Of a stretch of 61,194 nt of DNA, positions 1 through 61,194 are shown one piece after another. The notes under the pieces were generated by a model. It made no database searches, was not told where the DNA came from, and saw only the letters and a list, made by a program, of their open reading frames with translations. Source of the stretch: a virus (Duplodnaviria; Caudoviricetes); the IMG/VR virus record IMGVR_UViG_3300025117_000072, positions 1 to 61,194 of that record, one strand, 5' to 3'. The number at the start of each line of letters is the position of its first letter. Positions within the stretch are counted from its first letter, which is position 1. Both the position numbers and the translations under genes were made by a program.

Positions 1-335
1 CACTGGGTAATGGCGTTGTACTGCCGCTGATTCAGAATTCCCACGGGATGGTCAAGGGAATTACTGTCCCGATAGTAGGCGTTCAGGATTCTCTTCGCCC
101 GTGCGCTCGATGCCGTTCCCCCTGTTCCCATCGTGTAGGATGCCGTTCCCCCGGCAAGCGCAAAACTCTCAGAAGTCGTGTAGGGGATCATGAGGTTTTC
201 GGTAGCCCACGATTTGACCATCCTGTTCAGCGCCCTCAACCCGTGCTGCATGTAATGAGCGGCAGGGGTTTCTTCCGGGTCGAACTTCCCGAGACCAATT
301 ACGGCATCCGTTATCAGTTCCCTTGTGGTGGTCAT
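1..335 (-). CDS. Head-tail adaptor (P22 gp4-like), N-terminal part; continues across the circular junction into 60694-61194
   Basis: ATG at 335 reads MTTTRELITDAVIGLGKFDPEETP...GLRALNRMVKSW...DHPVGILNQRQYNAITQ, in frame with ORF 60694..61110; lies immediately upstream of the gp10-like gene. Confidence 0.8.
   Translation of the reverse strand, partial: MTTTRELITDAVIGLGKFDPEETPAAHYMQHGLRALNRMVKSWATENLMIPYTTSESFALAGGTASYTMGTGGTASSARAKRILNAYYRDSNSLDHPVGILNQRQYNAITQ
3..128. repeat. 126-bp terminal direct repeat (copy 1); circular assembly overlap
   Basis: 3-128 is identical to 61069-61194. Confidence 0.97.
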
Positions 336-11809: not shown

Positions 11810-12123
11810 ACGAGAAGACGGCTCCTGTTCTCAAACCGCTGGACCTGCTTGTCCATTTCGTCCAGCTTCTTCTTGAGTTTCCAGGCTTCGCCCTTCCGCT
11901 TGGTCTCTTCGAGCTTGGACATGAACATGTCGAACTCGGCCCGGAGTTTGTGGTACTTCTCAGTCAGCCGCTTGTTTAGTGCGCTAATGGATTCAATCGC
12001 CTGCTTCGCAACGATAATGGCGTTCTCCTGCTCTCGGATATGCTCAACGAGTTTCAGCACTCTCGGTTCGCACGTATCGCAGAAACGGAACTCATCGAGC
12101 ATTGGGTCTTTGTCTTCACTCAT
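11806..12123 (-). CDS. Hypothetical coiled-coil protein
   Basis: ATGA-type coupling to portal and sulfotransferase genes. Confidence 0.65.
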   Translation of the reverse strand: MSEDKDPMLDEFRFCDTCEPRVLKLVEHIREQENAIIVAKQAIESISALNKRLTEKYHKLRAEFDMFMSKLEETKRKGEAWKLKKKLDEMDKQVQRFENRSRLLV

Positions 12124-14660
12124 TTCCTGCCCCTCATCTGTTTTTCCATTTCCTGTGTAGCAATATATTTAACTTGGCTATGAAGGTAATCTTTTTCTGG
12201 ATCAGTCAAGCCCATGCTATCTATATCTTTAAGGTGTTCAATTCCTTTGGCTATAGCATTTAGTTTCTGTATATTTATTTGTTCACCTTGTTGTGCAAAT
12301 GGACTTTTACCCTTTGCGATTCTGTACCTTGCGTAATCCATGGCCTTTCGTACAATGACATCGTTTGGCTGGCCGCCAGATAGCAAATGATTGACTTCCT
12401 GCTTTGTCAGTGTGGGGACTAGGGATGGAATTTCGATCTCTCTTCCATCAAGATTAACGCCAATGGATATTTCAGTTGAAACTTTCCCGTCCGGTCGCTT
12501 TAGTTCCCCCAGAAATCCTAATCCCTTTGGAGACCCATCTGATCGCGCCCCGTAGTGGTTAGGTATAACATTTCCGTCTTGTCCTGGAACAATCACTTCT
12601 GGGCCATTCTCTCCAACAATGTACGGCTGTCCAGCATTCACAGGACCACCGTATTGTCTGCCCTCTATAGGACTGCCGCCTTCCCCTCCCATGTCCGCCA
12701 CTTTTCCCTGGAGCGCGGTCGCTTCCTTGGCAAGCCGGACCTGCTCTTCCTTGAGCTTCAATTCTTCCTGCTGCACCTTCAGGTTTTGCTGCTCCACCTT
12801 CAGGGCTTCCTTCTGACCCTCAAGGCTCTGCTTGAACTCCTCCACGGCATCCTGAATCATCCGGGCAACCATCTCCTGTGTAAGCGGAGGCTGTCCGCCC
12901 TCCATCTCCCTGACTTCAGGCGGAAGCAGAGTTTCCAGTCTCTTGACCAACTTCTCACCACGCGGGATGTCCATGTAATCCACAAGCACGTCCGCAATGA
13001 GCGGGGCAATCTGCGGGGCATACTGCATGATGGCCTGAAGCCTGTCCAACGCCTCTTGTCTCTGTGTCGCGTAAGAAGGACCGGTCTGCATGATGATGTC
13101 GTGCTTACCGACTGTCAGGTCAACCTTCGGCTTCTGCTCCCCGTTCTCACCTTCTACAGTACGGTTTACGTCTTGTGTGGTGATGGTCTTCCCATCAATG
13201 CCGAGCATCTTGATTACCCTGGCCGTGTCGTAAATCTCCGGCCTCATGCTCTCGATCACGCGCCCGACTTGACGAATGGCCCTCACAAGGTTGTCATGAT
13301 AGGCGAAGGTAACGGCATCGTCCGCCGCTTTCCTTTCCCGTATGGCAAGCCCGGAGGTCTCGTTCGATTTCCTGCCAAGGGACGCTTCGTGAAGCCCGAT
13401 GATGTCCTTCTTCTCGATCTGCCGTTGCGCTCCCTGCTCTACAAGGCCGGATGGAATCTGAGGGGGAACCTCACGTCTAGGAAACACCCCAGGCATTTTT
13501 TCATCAGGGTTAGCATACAGAACTGGGGAATTGTCTGTGTTTGCTTGTCTCCATTGTGACTCGAATCCTTCAGTCATTCTAGGAGTTGCAATAAATGGGG
13601 CCTTTGGCTGAAGGGCCAGCAGTTCCGTGATGGCGCTCTGCGTGTAGATATACATCCGCTGCGGGTCTTTGGCGTACCGGAAGAGACCGCGATAGAGTTT
13701 CTTCCCGTTGACGTTCGCCTCTTTCCCCCAGACAGGAATGATCGGCCACAATTTCCCTGGTATCCGAATCGGACCTTCCAGAACAGCCGTACCAGAAATC
13801 TTCCGCCACACGATATCGAAGTCCTCGATCTCCCGTTCCTTGAGGATGGTGATTCCTTCAGCCGGTTTCTCTTTCAGGACTTCGTAATCTTCCTTCTCCT
13901 GATTGAAAATCAGGTAAATCTTCTTGGTCCCCTTGCGCTCTTTCCTGAACCACTCCGCAATCCGAACGGTCTTGTCATGAACGGAGTACCAGTCCTTCAG
14001 GTTCTCGGGCAACTTCTCGGCCTCGAAGTCGATCACTTGGGCATCGGGGTAGTCTTCCTTGAACTGATCTACCGGAATGTCGTCCAGCAGGAACATGAAC
14101 TTTCCATCGTTCTTGTGCCAGAGCCTTGCCCGTGGGTCGAACAGGACGTTCAGGGAATTATCGACAGGGGAAATCCTGATCTCCTGATTGAAGGCGTCCA
14201 CCACGTTCCGATACTCGTCCTTGATGTTACCCTCGTTGTCGAACACATCCTCGTTCTCGTACTGCGTCAGCACCCGGATGGCCCCGCAATACCCACGCGC
14301 AGCCGCATCCTCAAGGGCCATGTCATACGCTACATGAGCGTCTGAAACGTGCTCGATGTAGCGGATAAGCCCGCCCACGATTTCCGCCTTCTCGGGGTCC
14401 GTGTTGGAATCGACCGGCATGGCCTTGATACCCGCCCGGTTCATCCTCTGCGCGGCAGTCACTTTGTCGAGAAAGACAGGGAGGTCATTGGCGTTCAGGC
14501 AGGGACGGCCGGCGCGGTCGTTTTTGACAGTTTCGTCCCATTGATCCTCGGAAAACACGAAGGTTGAGTCTTCAACGGCCTTCTCCCGGTTGTCCTTCTC
14601 GAATTCAATGGCCGAGTTCGCCTGCTCTAACGCCGTTTTTATGAGGTCTTTTTCATCCAT
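12120..14660 (-). CDS. Portal protein (P22 gp1-like) with C-terminal extension
   Basis: DQWD...RPCLNAN, VLFDP, IIPVWG, AKDPQRMY, SNETSGLAI, TGPSYATQRQEA; follows terL. Confidence 0.93.
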   Translation of the reverse strand: MDEKDLIKTALEQANSAIEFEKDNREKAVEDSTFVFSEDQWDETVKNDRAGRPCLNANDLPVFLDKVTAAQRMNRAGIKAMPVDSNTDPEKAEIVGGLIRYIEHVSDAHVAYDMALEDAAARGYCGAIRVLTQYENEDVFDNEGNIKDEYRNVVDAFNQEIRISPVDNSLNVLFDPRARLWHKNDGKFMFLLDDIPVDQFKEDYPDAQVIDFEAEKLPENLKDWYSVHDKTVRIAEWFRKERKGTKKIYLIFNQEKEDYEVLKEKPAEGITILKEREIEDFDIVWRKISGTAVLEGPIRIPGKLWPIIPVWGKEANVNGKKLYRGLFRYAKDPQRMYIYTQSAITELLALQPKAPFIATPRMTEGFESQWRQANTDNSPVLYANPDEKMPGVFPRREVPPQIPSGLVEQGAQRQIEKKDIIGLHEASLGRKSNETSGLAIRERKAADDAVTFAYHDNLVRAIRQVGRVIESMRPEIYDTARVIKMLGIDGKTITTQDVNRTVEGENGEQKPKVDLTVGKHDIIMQTGPSYATQRQEALDRLQAIMQYAPQIAPLIADVLVDYMDIPRGEKLVKRLETLLPPEVREMEGGQPPLTQEMVARMIQDAVEEFKQSLEGQKEALKVEQQNLKVQQEELKLKEEQVRLAKEATALQGKVADMGGEGGSPIEGRQYGGPVNAGQPYIVGENGPEVIVPGQDGNVIPNHYGARSDGSPKGLGFLGELKRPDGKVSTEISIGVNLDGREIEIPSLVPTLTKQEVNHLLSGGQPNDVIVRKAMDYARYRIAKGKSPFAQQGEQINIQKLNAIAKGIEHLKDIDSMGLTDPEKDYLHSQVKYIATQEMEKQMRGRK

Positions 14661-14661
14661 T

Positions 14662-16437
14662 TCAACTAGCCATCCATGCCGTCTCTACATTGTGGTCTCT
14701 GACATTGTGGTCTTCCGGCCCTCGCTCGATCTTCCTGGGGAGCTTGTCCATCATCTGCCTTGCAATCTGAGCGGTAGTCACCCGGTCGTCATGGCACCCC
14801 GCCTCAGCCCCGAACTTCCCCGATTTCTCGATATAGGTCCGCATCTCAGACACCGTTTCCCTGCACCGAATCGTTATGACACCTTCGCGGCATCCGTCCA
14901 GAAGCCCGTCAGCCATTTCCGGCTTTGTCTTCTTATTCGTGCTCCAGCCGTACTCTCCCGGCTTATGGGAGTACATCGGGTATTCCCTGGCCTTCAGGTC
15001 TCCCACGACCTTATATCCGTGATTGTTCAACTCGGGACACGCGGTCGCCCGTCCGTACATCTCCCCTACTGCTTCAACCACATCGGAAATCAGGTCGTAA
15101 TCCACATGCCCATACCACTGGGCGCATTGGTTCCCGGTCCTCCGGTTCCAAACGTCGATGACCGTCTTGTCCGGTTCCTTGTTCTCCTTCTGGTGGATCT
15201 CCCGCATTCCTCCGGCAGCATCGACGGTCAGGAAGTAAATCTCCCGTGGGTCGTAAGTCTCCCATACGGACAGGTGCCCGTTCGGGTTCGGCTCGATGAC
15301 AGGGACTCCCATCCGCCTTACGACATTCCCTACACCTATCGGCTTCAGGCATCCCCGTTCCACCATGTCGCAGAATTCCTGGTTGTAGTGGTTCGACCCC
15401 TTAGTCCTGAAGGCTTCAAAAATCGTCAGGGGGTTTTCCTGCTTGAAAAGCCCCACATCCCCCCGGCACTCGTTTTTGATCGACCACTCTCTCCAGTACA
15501 GTTGCTCGTTGGTGAGCTTGTACTTCTTCTGAAGCTCCTCCACCCCGTAGTTGATATCTTCCTTCCGGTTCTTTGCCCCAACGACCCTTTGAAGGAAACG
15601 CTCCTTCCTCTCGGGGTTTTCAAACTTCTTCTGGCACGATGGGTCCAGAAACCACGGGATGAAAATCAGAATCCAATCGCTGTCCGGGTTGTGGTAAGCG
15701 AAGGTGAACTCCACATCCGCCAAAGGCATGTGCGGGGCGAACTCGGAAATCAAGGCCGTGAAGTACGGGTACTTCCCTTCGCTGTAGGCGTCGAACACGT
15801 CCCGCTGGAAAGAGTTCCCATACCCTTTACCGGTGGACTCCCTCCATATCTCCGTGTCGGCAGGAGGTCTCGGGACGCACTGGAAAAGGCTTCCAAGGAG
15901 TTCGTCTGCATGTCCGGGCCACATCGCCTCTTCGGACCCATGGAGGAAATGAACCCCCTGGGAACGACCGGCTTCCACGTTTTTGGCCGTCGCAAGGCTG
16001 TATTCCGACTTCAGCCCCTTGCCCTTACTCCTATCGAACCTCAGTTCAATAGCGTTCGAGGTGATCGTGCTGGGAGCAATGGGGTTCTGCTCCTGCATGA
16101 GCTGGACCATGCGGTAGAGAGTCGTGGTCGATTTGTCTTCGTGGGCGATAATGAAAATCGACTGATTGAAATTCAGAGACGCCCTGTGATACCCGCGCCC
16201 CCCGATGTAGGTCGATCCCCCGAAACGTCTGTTCTTGAGAAGCATGATCCTGAGAAAGCCCATCTCGGCTTTCCGCTTCTCCGCTACGGCGTGCATGACC
16301 CTTTGTCCCGGCCGAAACCTCAAGGGCAAAATCTCAGCCGTGTTGTGGTCCCTGACCTTGATGCAGTCCTTGGCGAACTTCTCGTAATTTTGCTGATAAG
16401 ACAGTATGGCTTGTTCGACGGGACGAAGTTCGGTCAT
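14662..16437 (-). CDS. terL: Terminase large subunit
   Basis: LKNRRFGGST Walker A variant, LHGSEEAMW Walker B, ESTGKG coupling motif, TVDAAGG and HDDRV nuclease motifs. Confidence 0.93.
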   Translation of the reverse strand: MTELRPVEQAILSYQQNYEKFAKDCIKVRDHNTAEILPLRFRPGQRVMHAVAEKRKAEMGFLRIMLLKNRRFGGSTYIGGRGYHRASLNFNQSIFIIAHEDKSTTTLYRMVQLMQEQNPIAPSTITSNAIELRFDRSKGKGLKSEYSLATAKNVEAGRSQGVHFLHGSEEAMWPGHADELLGSLFQCVPRPPADTEIWRESTGKGYGNSFQRDVFDAYSEGKYPYFTALISEFAPHMPLADVEFTFAYHNPDSDWILIFIPWFLDPSCQKKFENPERKERFLQRVVGAKNRKEDINYGVEELQKKYKLTNEQLYWREWSIKNECRGDVGLFKQENPLTIFEAFRTKGSNHYNQEFCDMVERGCLKPIGVGNVVRRMGVPVIEPNPNGHLSVWETYDPREIYFLTVDAAGGMREIHQKENKEPDKTVIDVWNRRTGNQCAQWYGHVDYDLISDVVEAVGEMYGRATACPELNNHGYKVVGDLKAREYPMYSHKPGEYGWSTNKKTKPEMADGLLDGCREGVITIRCRETVSEMRTYIEKSGKFGAEAGCHDDRVTTAQIARQMMDKLPRKIERGPEDHNVRDHNVETAWMAS

Positions 16438-16450
16438 TCATTCTCTTCCC

Positions 16451-16486
16451 AAAACAAAAACCCGACCGGCCTGAGCCTGATCGGGT
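16451..16486 (-). terminator. Terminator closing the RAMP/GGY-NN cassette
   Basis: ACCCGATC-AGGCTCAGGCC-GGTCGGGT followed by TTTTGTTTT. Confidence 0.65.
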
Positions 16487-16543
16487 CTGTAGTTGCTGTC
16501 TGTTTTATGGTGAAGTGTTGTCGCTAACGACTATGTAGTGTTA

Positions 16544-16611
16544 GCCCTGCCTCGCCGCGCCTTGCCAAGCCCAGCCCCACCAAGCCGTGCCGTGCCTAGT
16601 CTAGCCACGCC
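16544..16611 (-). repeat. GGY-NN pentamer array 2 (14 units, 13 canonical); candidate guide ncRNA
   Basis: Minus strand GGC GT GGC TA GAC TA GGC AC GGC AC GGC TT GGT GG GGC TG GGC TT GGC AA GGC GC GGC GA GGC AG GGC; starts 5 nt after the stop of 16617..17114. Confidence 0.92.
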
Positions 16612-16616
16612 ATGAT

Positions 16617-17114
16617 TCAAGAAGATGTTGATTCGCTGATCTTGGGTGGCTCAGGAGGAACGTCGAACTTTCTCTTACGGGACGCGTGAAGGATAAAAGC
16701 GCCCTTTTGAGCGTTTCGGATTTGTTGATCCTTAGCCTTGTCGCTCAACATTTGGAAGTTGACATGTATATTCACCTTGCACCCCTTCCTTATCCAAGCT
16801 ACGGCTTTTTCGAAACGCTTGATGACTTCCTTCGTTACTTGGTCATCCGGTACAGATACGGTGTAGCCTTCTCTGTATTTGTTGCTGAGGTGTATGTTGT
16901 GTTCCACCAGTAATTCCTGACTGAGGGAGTGAAGCGCGCTCATGTAATCTAAGTTACCCTTTTCGGATTCCTCGATCGTTGTGGGTTCCGGGATGCCCAG
17001 AAGGGTTCTCAATTCCTGGTGGCTGTAAAACAGTCCATAGCCTTTCTCTTTGACATCCTCAGCGATGTAATCCACCACTTCATGCCAAAGAGGATGCTTC
17101 TTGACTTCCTCCAT
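16617..17114 (-). CDS. Accessory protein of the RAMP cassette (possible winged-helix DNA-binding)
   Basis: ATG at 17114 with AAGGAGGGG RBS; YSHQELRTLLG...HLSNKYREGYTV resembles a wHTH wing. Confidence 0.7.
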   Translation of the reverse strand: MEEVKKHPLWHEVVDYIAEDVKEKGYGLFYSHQELRTLLGIPEPTTIEESEKGNLDYMSALHSLSQELLVEHNIHLSNKYREGYTVSVPDDQVTKEVIKRFEKAVAWIRKGCKVNIHVNFQMLSDKAKDQQIRNAQKGAFILHASRKRKFDVPPEPPKISESTSS

Positions 17115-17138
17115 CTTCCCCTCCTTTCTTGTTTGGTT

Positions 17139-17276
17139 GCCCTGCCAAGCCCTGCCCAACCTAACCTTGCCAAGCCCGACCAAGCCTCACCAAACCGCGC
17201 CCAACCCAGCCGTGCCTAACCATGCCGAACCGCGCCACGCCCTACCCTGCCAAGCCGAGCCCGACCCAGTAGCGCC
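17139..17276 (-). repeat. GGY-NN pentamer array 1 (26 uninterrupted units plus degenerate leader); candidate guide ncRNA
   Basis: Plus-strand RCC at every fifth base from 17139 to 17264; begins directly after the TAA of 17277..17873. Confidence 0.95.
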
Positions 17277-17873
17277 TTACAACTTCACAACATTGAACCT
17301 TCCCAGCCTTGGCCGCTGCTCAAGAAGCCCGACGTAGCTCCCGGAATCCTTCGCAATATCCAGGACCGTAGAGAGGTTTATCACTCCGGTATCCACGTAC
17401 AGGGTGCATTCCAACGACCAATCGTGAAATATCGGCCTTGTCCGAACCACTTGCTGATTTCCGACCTTTACGATTGACGTATGGGCATGATCTTCGAAGA
17501 ATTTGTCCAAGTCAGGGTTTGGTATCTCCCTGCTCTCCTTGACGCTGATCTTTGCTCCCTTGTAGTTAAGGGGATGAAAGTCTTCCGCTACCATAACCCC
17601 GCTTCTGTACAGTTTTCCGTTCTTGTTTCTCTTGGCCCCTTCCCAGAAACATTTGTCTGTGCATTTTGCGGGAATAGCAACAATCCCTTCATGCAAGTAC
17701 AGCCCGGATTCCCATTCCAGCCTTGCGATTTCCCGGTGATCGTCATCGCTCTTTTTCCTCTTTGAGGTCAGAGCCTTCAGCGCCTTGGCGTAGGCATTTA
17801 GCGGATTCGCGGCCTTGTTGTCGTGCATGAGCAACGGACAAGCACCAGTAAGTTTAACTTTCAATTCCTCCAT
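17277..17873 (-). CDS. Stand-alone RAMP/Cas7-like protein (198 aa)
   Basis: LKVKLTGACPLLMH (beta1), VAIPAKCTDKCF, RTRPIFHDWSLECTL, C-terminal Gly loop GSYVGLLEQRPRLGRFNV; RBS AAGGGGGG. Confidence 0.7.
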   Translation of the reverse strand: MEELKVKLTGACPLLMHDNKAANPLNAYAKALKALTSKRKKSDDDHREIARLEWESGLYLHEGIVAIPAKCTDKCFWEGAKRNKNGKLYRSGVMVAEDFHPLNYKGAKISVKESREIPNPDLDKFFEDHAHTSIVKVGNQQVVRTRPIFHDWSLECTLYVDTGVINLSTVLDIAKDSGSYVGLLEQRPRLGRFNVVKL

Positions 17874-17903
17874 ACCATGATTCCCCCCTTCAGAATTTTC
17901 CAC

Positions 17904-17932
17904 ATGGTATAATAAAGGGAATTAAAAGTCAA
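17904..17932 (-). promoter_or_regulatory. Sigma70-type promoter of the RAMP cassette
   Basis: TTGACT-N17-TACCAT, 30 nt upstream of ATG 17873. Confidence 0.7.
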
Positions 17933-17946
17933 TCATAGAATGACGG

Positions 17947-18273
17947 TCACTTCTTTTCCTTCTTGTCGGTAACGGGACGCTCCAACGCATACGGCTCATG
18001 CTTCGGTTGGGGAGGATTCTTTTTGAGTACAAGGCCAAGGTGATCCATTAGGAGCATCACCACTTTTCGTATAGGAACCTCCTCGTAAGAAGGCAACATC
18101 ACGCCTGGCCTTCCACGGGCAAGATTTAGATAGCCCGCTGCATCAGTTGGGAGTGGATTAAAGTCAAAGCAAATGGTCGTTTCGTTACGTAGTTCATTCT
18201 TCAGTTTTTCGTTTTCGTCCCACAGCCGTTCAACCAACTTACTGAGCCTCTGAATCTCTTCTCTCTTATTCAT
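17947..18273 (-). CDS. Hypothetical protein
   Basis: 108 aa, GGAGGGGG RBS. Confidence 0.6.
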   Translation of the reverse strand: MNKREEIQRLSKLVERLWDENEKLKNELRNETTICFDFNPLPTDAAGYLNLARGRPGVMLPSYEEVPIRKVVMLLMDHLGLVLKKNPPQPKHEPYALERPVTDKKEKK

Positions 18274-19490: not shown

Positions 19491-19566
19491 TGGAGCCGCA
19501 CGTAGGAATCGAACCCACAACCCGAGGTTTACAAAACCCCCGCTCTGCCAGTTGAGCTAGTGCGAC
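19491..19566 (-). tRNA. tRNA-Thr(UGU)
   Basis: Acceptor GTCGCAC/GTGCGGC, D-arm TAGCTCAACTGGCAGAGC, anticodon loop TTTGTAA, GTTCGATTC T-loop, encoded CCA. Confidence 0.95.
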
Positions 19567-20355: not shown

Positions 20356-20781
20356 TCAACCATCTGTCCCACCCTTGCCCAGTTTGCCAAGGATGTCCTC
20401 AAGGGTCTCAGCCGTGACTCCAACCTCAGAACGGGTTGTGTATCCGAAATCACTAGACAATACCAGTCCGGCGATCTTGGGTTCGAGGGCTCCGATCATC
20501 GCCACAGACACGGTGGATTCCTTGACTCTGGCCCTCGCACGTGAAATGATGCCGCAAAATTCCGGCCGTTTTCCGTACTCCTCCAGCGTATCTTCACTGA
20601 TCCGTAGGTGCAGACACAGACCGCATAGGGTTGGAGGAGTGGGGACTTCCATCCTGACAATATCACCTTTGGATACCACTTGCTTTATGAGAATCCGGCT
20701 TTCGCATTTTGCAAAATACTCCTCAACTGCCTGCTCCAGTGCTTCCGGGTCGGTCCAGAGTGGGGGTCTTCCTGCTGGCAT
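20356..20781 (-). CDS. terS: Terminase small subunit (P22 gp3-like)
   Basis: MPAGRPPLWTDPEALEQAVEEYF...PPTLCGLCLHL...TLEEYGKRPEF. Confidence 0.85.
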   Translation of the reverse strand: MPAGRPPLWTDPEALEQAVEEYFAKCESRILIKQVVSKGDIVRMEVPTPPTLCGLCLHLRISEDTLEEYGKRPEFCGIISRARARVKESTVSVAMIGALEPKIAGLVLSSDFGYTTRSEVGVTAETLEDILGKLGKGGTDG

Positions 20782-20851
20782 TATCGAACCTCTGTTTGCC
20801 TCTTTCCGTGGTCCTCCTGGACGCGTGGGTAAAACAGGAGGAGAGAGCTGG

Positions 20852-21325
20852 TTAGTGTTTGGCCTTGCTTGCCTCATCAAACTCAGCCCGATACATCGGA
20901 TCAGTATCGTATCTGAGCCGGTCCAGAGAGGAGAAATCCTGTGTATTAGTTAAATCAGTATTAGTAGTGTCCAGAAATCCGTATTCAGTTTTCTGGATTG
21001 TGGTCAATGGGTTTTCATGAACTAAGTGTTCATGCTTGATATACTTACCCTTTTCGTTTCTGGACGAAATAAGCTCTATGTATCCGGCAGTCGCCAACTC
21101 TTTCAAAGCCGACCTTGTGGCTGATATTCCATCAGCCTTGCGCCTTGCGAGGTCAACGGCGTATATCTGCCAGTCATCAGGTAGAGACAGGATGTAAGCT
21201 AGTAGACCGGTTGCCTTCCAGGTTAGCCGCTTGTCCTGCACTGCTGTCTTGGCAATCTGCGCGTATGGGTTTTCTTTGTTCTTCGCTTTGCGAATGATCG
21301 TTTTTGGATTCATTTGCTCCCCCAA
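20852..21325 (-). CDS. Winged-HTH protein resembling the N-terminus of phage replication initiators
   Basis: NPYAQIAKTAVQDKRLTWKATGLLAYILSLPDDWQI...SALKELATAGYI. Confidence 0.7.
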   Translation of the reverse strand: MGEQMNPKTIIRKAKNKENPYAQIAKTAVQDKRLTWKATGLLAYILSLPDDWQIYAVDLARRKADGISATRSALKELATAGYIELISSRNEKGKYIKHEHLVHENPLTTIQKTEYGFLDTTNTDLTNTQDFSSLDRLRYDTDPMYRAEFDEASKAKH

Positions 21326-29492: not shown

Positions 29493-30605
29493 TCAAGAAC
29501 CTATAGACCCCCCGTTGCTGGTTCGTTTCTGCTTTACCAGTTGCTTCAGGTTATCGACGTTCACTCCCTCGTATCTCCTGGTATGGCGCAATGTGGTGTG
29601 TCCCGCAGCCTTGGAAGCAAGCAAGAGCTGGTCGCTGTGCTGTGTAATGAAGCTGTGTTTCGTGCCCTGGTAGAGAGTCACCTTGACGGGGCACCCTGCC
29701 CTTTCTCGGGCTTCATTCCAGGTGGTAGAAATGTGGCCGGTATAGGGAAGTCCCCCCTTGTCGATGAAAACATACGGGCTCTTGAGCCTGTTCTTTTTGA
29801 CAGCCTGAAGGATCTCGGCAACCGGGTCCGTGATAGGCATGTACCGGACTCGCTTCGTCTTGGTGAACTCCTCCAAGCGGGTCCTTCTTCCCTTCGAGAA
29901 CTTCCTTTTGATGACGATGATTCCCTTGTCTTGGTGGACGCAGTTCCATTGGAGGGCCATGGCTTCTCCCGTCCTGACAGGCCATGCACACAGGAACCGG
30001 AATATCGGGCGGTCATGTTCGGGGATCTCCGAAATGATTTTTTCCTGCCAGTAGGGAGTGAGCCAGGGGACCTCTTTTTCGGGGATCTCTATCGTGGGGA
30101 AATGCGGGACGCTTATAACGTCCTCATAGTCAACGGCTGCATCGGCAAGAATGGTATGGAGAAAGTCGAGATGAACTTTCCGTGTGGCCGGCGCGAGCCG
30201 GGGAAGACTGGACAGGTAATCCTTGATGTGGGCCTGTTTTATGGACCTCATGTCCATAGTTCCAAAGAACTCTATCGCCCTTGCGACATACCGCTCCACG
30301 TCCACAAGGGACCCCTTTGCATACCGGCTGCCCTTGACGACATTCTGCCGCCACTTCTCCGCGTAGGTGCCGAAAAGGAGCTCATTCTGAGCGTAGCCAA
30401 ACCATTTGCGGGGATTGAACCCCTTGCCTAGCTTTTCCAGGTCTCCGTTGATCAGGTTCGTGATCCGGTCGGCCCTTCCCCTGGAATCGATCGGTGTTCC
30501 ATCATCGCACCATGTACGGGTCCACTTCTTCCCCTGGTAGTACAGGTAAACGACAAAGCGCGGCTCCCCTGCATCTTGTCTCTGGTAGTATCTGCACCGT
30601 GACAT
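29493..30605 (-). CDS. int: Tyrosine recombinase/integrase
   Basis: PVRTGEAMALQW, TKTKR, LYQGTKHSF, AGHT...TRRY. Confidence 0.88.
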   Translation of the reverse strand: MSRCRYYQRQDAGEPRFVVYLYYQGKKWTRTWCDDGTPIDSRGRADRITNLINGDLEKLGKGFNPRKWFGYAQNELLFGTYAEKWRQNVVKGSRYAKGSLVDVERYVARAIEFFGTMDMRSIKQAHIKDYLSSLPRLAPATRKVHLDFLHTILADAAVDYEDVISVPHFPTIEIPEKEVPWLTPYWQEKIISEIPEHDRPIFRFLCAWPVRTGEAMALQWNCVHQDKGIIVIKRKFSKGRRTRLEEFTKTKRVRYMPITDPVAEILQAVKKNRLKSPYVFIDKGGLPYTGHISTTWNEARERAGCPVKVTLYQGTKHSFITQHSDQLLLASKAAGHTTLRHTRRYEGVNVDNLKQLVKQKRTSNGGSIGS

Positions 30606-60693: not shown

Positions 60694-61194
60694 CTATGGA
60701 CCTTCGTTGATAGACCATGAACGGGTTGAAGTGATTACACCGGCAGGCATGTCCATTTCCTCCAGCCGGTTTGCCAAGTTCAGATTCTTGATCGTCCGCT
60801 TCAGATCGTCGGCTTCAGAGACCATGTAATTGGTGATCTGCACCCCGTAGGCTCCGGCAAGCATATTCCTGAGATTTGCCACAATCGCCGCTTCGTACTC
60901 ACCGTCGAGACTGATTTCGTCTGCAAGCGCAAGAGTGTCGTGAAGCTCTTTCGTGCTCTCGATATACATCGTGTAGCCTGCCCCATCCGGCACCTTCCAC
61001 ACGTAGATCGTCCCTATGGGGTAGGTCGGATCATAGAAAAGCCTGTCAGGGATTCCCGCAAGGGACTTCTGGGTAATGGCGTTGTACTGCCGCTGATTCA
61101 GAATTCCCACGGGATGGTCAAGGGAATTACTGTCCCGATAGTAGGCGTTCAGGATTCTCTTCGCCCGTGCGCTCGATGCCGTTCCCCCTGTTCC
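60694..61194 (-). CDS. Head-tail adaptor (gp4-like), C-terminal part; begins at 335 across the junction
   Basis: In frame with 1..335 through the terminal repeat. Confidence 0.8.
   Translation of the reverse strand, partial: GTGGTASSARAKRILNAYYRDSNSLDHPVGILNQRQYNAITQKSLAGIPDRLFYDPTYPIGTIYVWKVPDGAGYTMYIESTKELHDTLALADEISLDGEYEAAIVANLRNMLAGAYGVQITNYMVSEADDLKRTIKNLNLANRLEEMDMPAGVITSTRSWSINEGP
61069..61194. repeat. 126-bp terminal direct repeat (copy 2)
   Basis: Identical to 3-128. Confidence 0.97.

What the first reader, a model, noticed from the sequence alone, without database searches (positions are those of the whole stretch)
16451..17932. Self-contained RAMP/Cas7-like + GGY-NN pentamer-array cassette: candidate non-CRISPR RNA-guided system
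Seen in the sequence, in transcription order: a sigma70 promoter (TTGACT-N17-TACCAT), a 198-aa gene, a non-coding array of 26 perfect GGY-NN units, a 165-aa gene, a second array of 14 units, and a terminator. The whole unit sits between terS and terL, and there are no cas1/cas2 genes or classical CRISPR repeats. Established: Cas7/RAMP proteins polymerise along guide RNA with a fixed nucleotide step. Inference: each subunit binds one constant GGY and displays the variable NN, so the array is a guide whose target is spelled by the non-contiguous dinucleotides, probably against competing phages or host genes during lysogeny. From memory this resembles the recently reported phage VIPR systems; I cannot verify that here.
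Basis: partly seen in the sequence, partly recalled or inferred. Interest (0 to 1): 0.96.

Follow-up and report, generated by a model that had tools for sequence, protein, structure and literature searches.

The report
Phage VIPR guide-RNA silencing cassette
This cassette in a 61-kb temperate phage is a member of the recently described VIPR family, in which a small Cas7-like protein reads GGY-NN pentamer-repeat RNAs as gapped guides to silence rival DNA; it is a real system but not a new kind.

Summary
On the minus strand lie a promoter-like site, a 198-aa gene, 26 perfect GGYNN units, a 165-aa gene, 14 in-register units (13 perfect), a small hairpin and a strong terminator.

The interpretation also holds, but the system is already published as VIPR (bioRxiv 10.64898/2026.04.26.720920 and three later preprints).

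- **198-aa protein:** it matches the solved "SUSP1 Vipr protein" (PDB 36pp, E 7.6e-26). It folds confidently, and the nearest solved folds are chains of type III/VII CRISPR effector complexes.
- **165-aa protein:** it is a homologue of the gene next to vipr in type II-like phage loci, where vap1 sits (hhalign 99.1-99.8%).
- **Relatives:** they keep GGY and vary NN, even where the proteins are identical.

The window sits in a subclade that differs from the studied type II loci. One array lies between vipr and vap, arrays run up to 28 units, and tails are short and unstructured.

No natural target was found, and expression could not be tested.

Verdict: a new member of a known kind.

The parts
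17904..17932 (-). Promoter-like site TTGACT-N17-TACCAT upstream of vipr
   Evidence: 9 of 12 matches. The region has 4 such sites against 1.4 +/- 1.2 in shuffles, so support is weak. The host and its sigma factors are unknown.
17277..17873 (-). vipr: 198-aa Vipr protein, a minimal RAMP related to Cas7
   Evidence: PDB 36pp_D 'SUSP1 Vipr protein', E 7.6e-26, query residues 2-195; phrog_4652, E 1.2e-47. AF2 mean pLDDT 95.7; 27 PDB chains at E <= 0.001; the rows listed at that level are all chains of type III Csm/Cmr or type VII CRISPR effector complexes.
17267..17276 (-). Two further in-register units directly after the vipr stop codon: GGCGC (perfect) and TACTG (degenerate)
   Evidence: Read from the sequence. 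Whether they belong to the vrRNA is unknown.
17137..17266 (-). vrRNA array 1: 26 perfect GGYNN units (130 nt) between vipr and vap
   Evidence: Relatives carry same-strand arrays at the same position.
17115..17136 (-). Short A/C-rich 3' flank of array 1 that runs into the vap ribosome-binding site (AAGGAGG) and start codon. No hairpin.
   Evidence: array 1 region z -1.6. Equivalent short tails followed by RBS and ATG occur in relatives.
16617..17114 (-). vap: 165-aa accessory protein. Homologue of the gene next to vipr in a felixounavirus and in LESphi2, where vap1 sits in SUSP1-type loci. The N-terminal domain is winged-helix-like.
   Evidence: hhalign 99.1%, E 1e-18, against the VpaE1 gene next to vipr; 99.8%, E 4.8e-30, against LESphi2; phrog_5926, E 1.4e-10; pLDDT 88.7; residues 1-89 align to winged-helix DNA-binding domains at Z 5-6.7, which is a modest score.
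16542..16611 (-). vrRNA array 2: 14 units in register (13 perfect, third unit GACTA), starting 5 nt after the vap stop codon
16523..16545 (-). Small hairpin that starts in the last unit of array 2; a possible 3' tail or cap
   Evidence: positions 1-23 of the fold. Conservation was not tested.
16450..16487 (-). Intrinsic terminator: a long GC-rich bulged hairpin followed by UUUUUGUUUU
   Evidence: the 96-nt stretch folds at -32 kcal/mol, z -5.6, and 0 of 200 shuffles fold as well.

Best explanation
The cassette is a VIPR (Viral Interference Programmable Repeat) system carried by a complete temperate phage genome.

It is probably one transcription unit: promoter, vipr, vrRNA array of 26 units, vap (a vap1 homologue), vrRNA array of 14 units, terminator.

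By homology with the characterised SUSP1 system, the mechanism would be as follows:
- Vipr protomers polymerise on the transcript, one per pentamer, and lock each GGY in place.
- The NN dinucleotides are displayed and pair with double-stranded DNA that reads NN-x-NN-x, skipping one base per unit.
- The bound site is silenced transcriptionally.
- Vap, a winged-helix-like protein, enhances the effect.

The likely targets are genes of competing phages, satellites or prophages in the same unknown host.

I read the uninterrupted 26-unit tract as one long guide with a footprint of about 78 bp, at roughly 60:40 against two or more guides.

Shown here: the homology of both proteins, the fold, the arrays, the hypervariability of NN among relatives, the viral context, and the absence of self-targets.

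Inferred: transcription, processing, filament assembly, the 1-nt-skip code in this clade, silencing, and the kind of target.
For: Vipr homology:
- phmmer against PDB sequences returns one hit, 36pp_D 'SUSP1 Vipr protein', E 7.6e-26 over query residues 2-195.
- The residues the cryo-EM preprint names as contacting the RNA or target (section read) map as H17->H17, K33->K33, R138->R146, R179->R187 and D177->E185. I mapped them by hand on the alignment. H17 and R146 are invariant in 36 relatives.
- AF2 gives pLDDT 95.7. Foldseek gives 27 PDB chains at E <= 0.001; the rows listed at that level are all chains of type III Csm/Cmr or type VII complexes. S. epidermidis Csm3 (5yjd_A) follows at E 2e-3.

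Vap homology:
- The vap profile matches the gene next to vipr in felixounavirus VpaE1 (99.1%) and in LESphi2 (99.8%).

Arrays in relatives:
- 72 of 80 IMG/VR loci with a Vipr relative carry at least one run of 4 or more perfect GGYNN units. All such runs but one are on the vipr strand.
- In 22 of the 28 loci (window included) where tblastn finds vap, an array lies between vipr and vap.

NN hypervariability:
- L009 and L011 have identical vipr (567/567 nt) and vap (465/465 nt), yet their upstream arrays have 13 and 16 units.
- L009 and L010 differ at 1 of 465 vap bases, yet their NN strings are unrelated.

Context:
- No Cas1, Cas2 or CRISPR array.
- Virus record rated 100% complete, with a 126-bp terminal repeat and a tyrosine integrase.
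- No self-target under the 1-nt-skip rule: best 29 of 52 and 15 of 22. The preprint reports the same for its systems (section read).

The mechanism itself is taken from the Results sections of 10.64898/2026.04.26.720920 and 10.64898/2026.04.26.720927.
Against: - No natural target was found, so the code and the biological role are untested for this locus.
- There are no expression data.
- The SUSP1 residue W178, which stacks on the second G, is Q186 here. E71/M72 are K70/C71 (alignment read).
- Array 1 has 26 units, beyond the 9-16 reported for characterised vrRNAs.
- Array 1 has no structured tail. Type II reference arrays are followed by hairpin-forming tails of about 75 nt.
- In a quick tree the Vipr falls on the other side of a branch (SH-aLRT 92) from the type II-like reference loci, so properties of SUSP1 VIPR may not all transfer.
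- The promoter call is weak.
Confidence: 0.88

Rival explanations
1. It is the same VIPR system, but the 26-unit tract is processed into two or more vrRNAs of the usual 9-16 units, each with its own target, rather than serving as one 78-bp guide.
For: Characterised vrRNAs have 9-16 units and are under 100 nt (sections read). The first preprint describes 'staggered' arrays in which one vrRNA ends where the next begins (legend of fig. S18). Some long arrays in relatives contain a degenerate unit that could be a boundary, for example in L008 and L002.
Against: There is no degenerate unit, tail or hairpin inside the 26 units. In relatives that hold two arrays in one intergenic region, the arrays are separated by tails of about 35-45 nt (L001, L014, L016). 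Exact 1-nt-skip patterns for each half found nothing in IMG/VR, which helps neither reading.
Confidence: 0.35
2. In this subclade the arrays act mainly in cis. They sit in the 5' leaders of vipr and vap, so Vipr assembly on them would control translation or stability of the operon's own mRNAs, or the complex would target RNA, rather than silence foreign DNA.
For: In the window and in relatives the arrays end about 20-50 nt before the RBS and start codon of the next gene. An array lies between vipr and vap in 22 of the 28 loci (window included) where tblastn finds vap. No DNA target was found.
Against: NN strings are hypervariable between near-identical loci. That is expected of guides in an arms race and not of a cis-regulatory leader. 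Array 2 follows the last gene and precedes a terminator, so it leads no gene. The homologous SUSP1 system binds dsDNA (sections read). A cis role could also exist alongside guiding.
Confidence: 0.07
3. The pentamer tracts are simple G-rich repeats, for example G-quadruplex-forming or slippage-prone DNA or hidden coding sequence, with no guide function. Their position next to a RAMP-like gene would then be incidental.
For: The tracts are G-rich. Spurious ORFs run through them on both strands, for example 17101..17337 on the plus strand.
Against: A period of 5 is not a multiple of 3. The vap homologues start after the array. 72 of 80 loci with a Vipr relative carry such runs, and all runs but one are on the vipr strand. 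GGY is fixed while NN varies. The protein is a homologue of a protein solved in complex with this kind of RNA.
Confidence: 0.01

Closest known systems
Type II VIPR systems (Escherichia phage SUSP1 and Pseudomonas fulva prophage; bioRxiv 10.64898/2026.04.26.720920 and 10.64898/2026.04.26.720927)
   Same: - Homologous Vipr of about 200 aa (E 7.6e-26 to the solved SUSP1 protein).
- A homologous gene at the vap1 position.
- Same-strand GGY/NN pentamer arrays flanking the genes, with hypervariable NN.
- No cas genes.
- Phage-borne.
- No self-target.
   Different: - One array lies between vipr and vap. In the reference loci the two genes abut: 3 nt apart in VpaE1 and overlapping in LESphi2 and Medea1.
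- There is no array upstream of vipr in the window.
- Arrays have 26 and 14 units, against 9-13 in the VpaE1 locus and 9-16 in the preprint.
- Array 1 lacks the roughly 75-nt structured tail seen in VpaE1 and LESphi2.
- The G-loop reads E-Q-R where SUSP1 has D-W-R.
- The window falls on a separate branch of a quick Vipr tree.

Class 1 CRISPR-Cas backbone subunits (Cas7 family, e.g. Csm3 of type III-A; type VII Cas7)
   Same: The nearest solved folds are chains of these effector complexes (Foldseek E 7.7e-5 to 1e-3, TM about 0.4-0.5). S. epidermidis Csm3 (5yjd_A) follows at E 2e-3. As described for Vipr in the cryo-EM preprint, these proteins polymerise along a guide RNA with a fixed step and use a thumb that flips bases out.
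   Different: - Sequence identity is only 8-13%.
- There are no Cas1, Cas2, CRISPR repeats, spacers or other cas genes.
- The step is 5 nt with three bases sequestered, and the target skips one base per unit, whereas class 1 effectors disrupt pairing at every sixth position.
- The guide is a pentamer repeat, not a spacer.
Solo or orphan vrRNAs of satellites and SUSP1-family phages (bioRxiv 10.64898/2026.10.15.759431; abstract and Methods section 17 read)
   Same: Both are GGY/NN arrays called by the same definition, 4 or more GG[C/T]NN units.
   Different: The window's arrays sit beside their own vipr and vap genes. No further array exists elsewhere in the genome.

Membership tests
VIPR system | Vipr protein homologous to characterised Vipr proteins | tested here: met
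   36pp_D 'SUSP1 Vipr protein', E 7.6e-26, 94 bits, query residues 2-195 of 198; 130 phage records carry a tblastn match, among them felixounaviruses at 32-33% identity.
VIPR system | Minimal RAMP fold: single RRM core, glycine-rich loop, thumb hairpin, helical bundle | tested here: met
   pLDDT 95.7. The strand and helix order fits an RRM core, with a beta-hairpin at residues 130-149 and helices at 27-56; invariant G178 and G182 and near-invariant G191 in the loop; the best PDB folds are chains of type III/VII CRISPR effector complexes, with Csm3 (5yjd_A) at E 2e-3. I assigned the thumb, loop and bundle by alignment to the residues named in the preprint, not by superposition on 36pp.
VIPR system | Residues whose mutation abolished SUSP1 VIPR silencing (R138, D177, K33) and the other named RNA contacts | tested here: met
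   From the alignment read: R138->R146, K33->K33, H17->H17 and R179->R187 are identical. D177->E185 is conservative. W178->Q186 and E71/M72->K70/C71 are not conserved.
VIPR system | Tandem GGY/NN pentamer arrays of 4 or more units beside vipr on the same strand | tested here: met
   26 and 11 perfect units; 14 in register for array 2. These are the only such runs in 61,194 bp.
VIPR system | GGY conserved and NN hypervariable among related loci | tested here: met
   L009 and L011 have identical proteins but 13 and 16 units. L009/L010 and L004/L005 have vipr and vap 93-99.8% identical at the nucleotide level but unrelated NN strings.
VIPR system | Invariable 3' tail capping each vrRNA (a pseudoknot in the SUSP1 clade) | tested here: inconclusive
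   Array 2 is followed by a 23-nt hairpin and a terminator. Array 1 is followed only by 22 nt of A/C-rich sequence holding the vap RBS, with no significant structure. Relatives in the subclade have short lineage-specific tails such as GGAAACA or GGATAAACA. Tail conservation and covariation were not modelled.
VIPR system | Accessory vap gene in the locus | tested here: met
   hhalign 99.1% and 99.8% to the genes next to vipr in VpaE1 and LESphi2. That the VpaE1 gene corresponds to SUSP1 vap1 is inferred from its position in a related felixounavirus. It was not checked against SUSP1 itself.
VIPR system | No CRISPR array and no adaptation genes | tested here: met
   no Cas1 or Cas2 match. Tandem Repeats Finder reports no CRISPR-like array among its 4 rows; the only long direct repeat is the 126-bp terminal repeat.
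VIPR system | vrRNAs are expressed and co-purify with Vipr | not testable with these tools
VIPR system | Natural DNA target with at least 80% NN match under the 1-nt-skip rule, and no self-target | tested here: inconclusive
   No self-target: 29 of 52 and 15 of 22. No target at 80% or more in the 91 fetched loci plus the window. Five exact sub-patterns gave 0 hits in IMG/VR and in the metagenome contigs. A mismatch-tolerant search of large collections was not possible.
VIPR type II specifically | Vipr phylogeny, vrRNA architecture and vap1 association as in SUSP1 and P. fulva | tested here: inconclusive
   A homologue of the gene at the vap1 position is present. The array layout differs, and the window falls on the other side of an SH-aLRT 92 branch from VpaE1, LESphi2 and Medea1 in a quick tree.
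CRISPR-Cas class 1 (as a member) | CRISPR repeat-spacer array together with cas genes beyond one RAMP | tested here: not met
   Only the fold is shared.

The most novel reading that the evidence does not exclude
The window belongs to a VIPR subclade with an interleaved operon, array-vipr-array-vap-array, that works differently in detail from SUSP1. Guide tracts are embedded in the mRNA leaders, lack the pseudoknot cap, and can form single extra-long filaments of 26-28 protomers with footprints of about 78-84 bp. Vipr loading on the leader may also couple guide production to translation of vap. If the published seven-type scheme does not already cover this layout, it would be a new architectural variant and the longest natural gapped guide known.
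Probability: 0.2. Interest if true: 0.55.

Novelty: new member of a known kind. Interest (0 to 1): 0.35.

Why it matters
VIPR is a newly described way for an RNA to specify a DNA target through a gapped dinucleotide code. It has been proposed as the ancestor of CRISPR RAMPs.

This locus adds a clean, complete example from an uncultured temperate phage, in a branch separate from the studied E. coli and Pseudomonas systems.

Its unbroken 26-unit array and its array-between-genes layout raise three questions that can be tested directly:
- Is there an upper limit to filament and guide length?
- Is the structured 3' tail dispensable?
- How are guides released from an mRNA?

As a discovery it is a rediscovery.

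Tried and rejected
Family libraries:
- Pfam, NCBIfam and PADLOC gave no significant hit for either protein.
- PHROGs gave only families of unknown function.
- Rfam found nothing above chance in 16300..18100. The single row was MIR815 at E 0.74, against a gathering score of 63 bits.

Vap structure:
- A profile search of the vap alignment against PDB sequences gave 0 hits at E <= 1.
- Foldseek of the vap model gave nothing at E <= 0.001.
- VIA-align gave only modest winged-helix matches at Z 5-6.7.

Target search:
- Self-scan at skips of 0-3 found only background, apart from the array matching itself at skip 3.
- 123 guides of 9 or more units, from all fetched loci plus the window, were scanned against 665,127 bases. 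Hits at 80% or more numbered 23, 23 and 28 for skips 0, 1 and 2. There is therefore no enrichment for the 1-nt-skip rule in this small set, and none of the skip-1 hits came from a window array.
- Reading the NN as the first two codon bases and scanning six-frame translations of the window and loci found no match at 45% or more for array 1, and at best 8 of 14 for array 2.
- Exact 1-nt-skip patterns gave 0 hits in IMG/VR for array 1 units 1-13, units 14-26 and the 11 perfect units of array 2.
- They also gave 0 hits in the metagenome contigs for array 1 units 4-14 and 12-22.
- Exact matching misses targets with mismatches, so this is not evidence that no target exists.

Other checks:
- The window's terL, portal, terS and three neighbouring ORFs have no tblastn match (E <= 1e-5) in any of the 91 fetched loci. 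The cassette's neighbourhood is therefore not conserved.
- The careful maximum-likelihood tree did not finish in the time allowed, so the quick tree was used.
- I considered and rejected a coding reading of the arrays, because period 5 is not a multiple of 3 and the vap homologues start after the array.
Full report
**What is in the sequence.** All parts lie on the minus strand, in transcription order:
- A sigma-70-like site, TTGACT-N17-TACCAT, at 17932..17904. It has 9 of 12 matches. The scanned region has 4 such sites against 1.4 +/- 1.2 in shuffles, so this is weak evidence.
- A 198-aa ORF from ATG 17873 to the stop at 17277.
- A tract of 26 perfect GGYNN units at 17137..17266. One more perfect unit and one degenerate unit sit in register directly after the stop codon.
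- 22 nt of A/C-rich sequence that holds an AAGGAGG ribosome-binding site.
- A 165-aa ORF from ATG 17114 to the stop at 16617.
- A second tract of 14 in-register units at 16542..16611, starting five bases after that stop. Thirteen units are perfect and the third is GACTA.
- A 23-nt hairpin that starts in the last unit, then a bulged GC-rich hairpin with a U-run. The 96-nt stretch folds at -32 kcal/mol, z -5.6, and 0 of 200 shuffles fold as well.

These are the only two runs of 4 or more perfect GGYNN units on either strand of the whole 61,194-bp sequence. Two small corrections apply: one unit of array 2 is imperfect, and terS is not the adjacent gene.

**The 198-aa protein is a Vipr.**
- A phmmer search of all PDB chain sequences returns one hit, 36pp chain D, named "SUSP1 Vipr protein". 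E is 7.6e-26 and the match covers residues 2-195 of the query.
- PHROGs places the protein in phrog_4652, a family of unknown function (E 1.2e-47). Pfam, NCBIfam and PADLOC have nothing.
- With an alignment of 36 relatives, AlphaFold2 gives a model with mean pLDDT 95.7.
- Foldseek against the PDB finds 27 chains at E <= 0.001. The rows listed at that level are all chains of type III Csm/Cmr or type VII CRISPR effector complexes. S. epidermidis Csm3 (5yjd_A) follows at E 2e-3. TM-scores are about 0.4-0.5 and identity is 8-13%.
- The cryo-EM preprint names the SUSP1 residues that hold GGY and the target backbone (sections read). On the alignment they map as H17->H17, K33->K33, R138->R146, R179->R187 and D177->E185. 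W178->Q186 and E71/M72->K70/C71 are not conserved. H17 and R146 are invariant in the 36-sequence alignment.

**The 165-aa protein is a homologue of the gene at the vap1 position.**
- I built a 23-sequence alignment from the genes that follow vipr in related loci.
- The profile matches the gene directly downstream of vipr in felixounavirus VpaE1 at 99.1% probability (E 1e-18). It matches the equivalent gene of Pseudomonas phage LESphi2 at 99.8% (E 4.8e-30).
- SUSP1 VIPR is the type II exemplar, and its accessory gene is called vap1 (sections read). That the VpaE1 gene corresponds to vap1 is inferred from its position in a related phage.
- The AF2 model has pLDDT 88.7. Residues 1-89 align to winged-helix DNA-binding domains such as RepE, GntR-family regulators and CtsR, at Z 5-6.7. 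That score is modest, and Foldseek alone found nothing at E <= 0.001. It does agree with the preprint's legend, which lists winged-helix-like domains among the predicted Vap structures.

**The arrays behave as vrRNA genes.**
- A scan of IMG/VR found 505 stretches encoding a relative of the protein, and the best 80 were kept.
- Of those 80, 72 carry at least one run of 4 or more perfect GGYNN units. All such runs but one are on the vipr strand.
- The closest loci (42-58% identity) show same-strand arrays of 6-28 units around vipr and a vap homologue.
- GGY stays fixed while NN changes, even between near-identical phages:
  - L009 and L011 have identical vipr (567/567 nt) and vap (465/465 nt), but their upstream arrays have 13 and 16 units.
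  - L009 and L010 differ at 1 of 465 vap bases, but have unrelated NN strings of 13 and 10 units.
  - L004 and L005 are 95-97% identical in the genes, but have unrelated arrays.

**How the window differs from the studied loci.**
- In VpaE1, vipr and the vap1-position gene are 3 nt apart. Arrays of 9-13 units cluster upstream and downstream, each followed by a conserved hairpin-forming tail of about 75 nt. LESphi2 is similar.
- In the window and in 21 relatives, an array lies between vipr and vap. Together these are 22 of the 28 loci where tblastn finds vap. In five more distant loci vap abuts vipr, and in one locus vap lies upstream.
- Arrays in this subclade end in A-rich units and a short lineage-specific tail. 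They run into the ribosome-binding site of the next gene within about 20-50 nt.
- Array 1 shows no significant fold (z -1.6).
- In a quick IQ-TREE of 70 distinct Vipr sequences (of 91), the 21 interleaved rows fall on one side of a branch with SH-aLRT 92. VpaE1, LESphi2 and Medea1 fall on the other side. The careful search did not finish.
- Unlike most of its relatives, the window has no array upstream of vipr.

**Genome context.**
- The window is the whole record: a virus contig rated 100% complete, with a 126-bp direct terminal repeat.
- It encodes a tyrosine integrase (PF00589, E 6.7e-12), so the phage is probably temperate.
- The cassette lies directly upstream of the large terminase (14662..16437) and the portal gene (12120..14660). 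The small terminase lies at 20356..20880.
- None of these neighbours has a match in the flanks of the 91 related loci. The cassette therefore moves between phage backbones.
- Relatives in genome collections come from metagenome-assembled genomes labelled Fastidiosipila, Omnitrophota, FCB group and Desulfobacterales. The host is unknown.

**Mechanism.**
- The following was shown for SUSP1 VIPR in the two preprints whose Results I read:
  - One Vipr protomer binds each repeat.
  - Two neighbouring protomers sequester each GGY.
  - NN pairs with DNA while every third target base is skipped.
  - Binding represses transcription on either strand, without a PAM.
  - vap1 enhances protection.
  - Natural targets are satellites and prophages.
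- I infer the same for this locus by homology.
- I infer a single transcript from promoter to terminator from the layout alone.
- I favour one long guide for array 1, at about 60:40. The tract has no internal tail or degenerate unit, and relatives that hold two arrays in one spacer separate them by tails of about 35-45 nt.
- Reading the reverse complement of the NN string as the first two codon bases gives a stretch with only two positions that could be stop codons, against five in the sense reading. This is a weak hint of one coding target.

**Targets.** None was found.
- Self-targeting is absent: 29 of 52 and 15 of 22 matches at best.
- The fetched loci give background only: 23, 23 and 28 hits for skips 0, 1 and 2.
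- Five exact patterns gave 0 hits in IMG/VR and in the metagenome contigs.
- Exact matching is a blunt tool, so the question stays open.

**Literature and novelty.**
- Two full-text searches found four 2026 preprints on VIPR:
  - The discovery paper, 10.64898/2026.04.26.720920. I read the outline, the Results, the Discussion, four Methods sections and passages.
  - The cryo-EM paper, 10.64898/2026.04.26.720927. I read the outline and two Results sections.
  - The satellite-competition paper, 10.64898/2026.10.15.759431. I read the abstract, the outline and one Methods section.
  - A language-model survey that recovers 99 VIPR-like clusters, 10.64898/2026.10.21.760802. I read passages only.
- The kind is therefore known, and this locus is a new member.
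- I could not determine whether the interleaved layout and arrays longer than 16 units are already catalogued among the seven published types. The figures and supplements are not available here.

**Limits.** Expression, near-identical sister phages and Vipr-Vap contact therefore remain untested.

Noticed in passing
window 3-128 and 61069-61194: A perfect 126-bp direct terminal repeat. Together with the CheckV estimate of 100% completeness, it indicates that the window is a complete phage genome, although the record is classed as linear.
   Followed up: partly
window 29562-30032 (-), within a 407-aa open frame: A tyrosine recombinase/integrase domain (PF00589, E 6.7e-12). The phage is probably temperate. 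No serine recombinase was found.
   Followed up: partly
window 19491-19566 (-): A tRNA-Thr (anticodon TGT) lies between terS and the VIPR cassette. It is the only tRNA in the genome.
   Followed up: no
window 12120-14660 (-): The 846-aa portal protein (phrog_156, residues 1-649) carries a C-terminal extension. Residues about 665-706 match a short segment of tape-measure protein families (phrog_1538 and phrog_5062, E 4e-8 to 3e-5).
   Followed up: no
window 14662-16437 (-): The large terminase is recognised only in its C-terminal part (phrog_38407 over residues 300-574, phrog_24361 over residues 439-573). It has no Pfam hit at E <= 1, so it is a divergent terminase.
   Followed up: no
L054:3814-3858 against L023-L029 and L064: A 9-unit array of one related viral contig matches seven other VIPR-bearing contigs at 15 of 18 NN bases under the 1-nt-skip rule. 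Six of them are close relatives of one another. This could be VIPR-against-VIPR-phage targeting, but it lies within the background hit rate of the scan.
   Followed up: no
L009:534-598 against L011:1448-1527: Two viral contigs with identical vipr and vap genes differ by whole-unit insertions, deletions and substitutions in the upstream array (13 against 16 units). This suggests that arrays change by gain and loss of pentamer units.
   Followed up: partly
window 17947-18273 (-): The 108-aa ORF just upstream of the cassette has no family. Its only feature is a weak coiled-coil, bZIP-like N-terminus (Pfam E 0.02, below the cut-off). It has no match in the related loci, so it is probably not part of the system.
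   Followed up: partly
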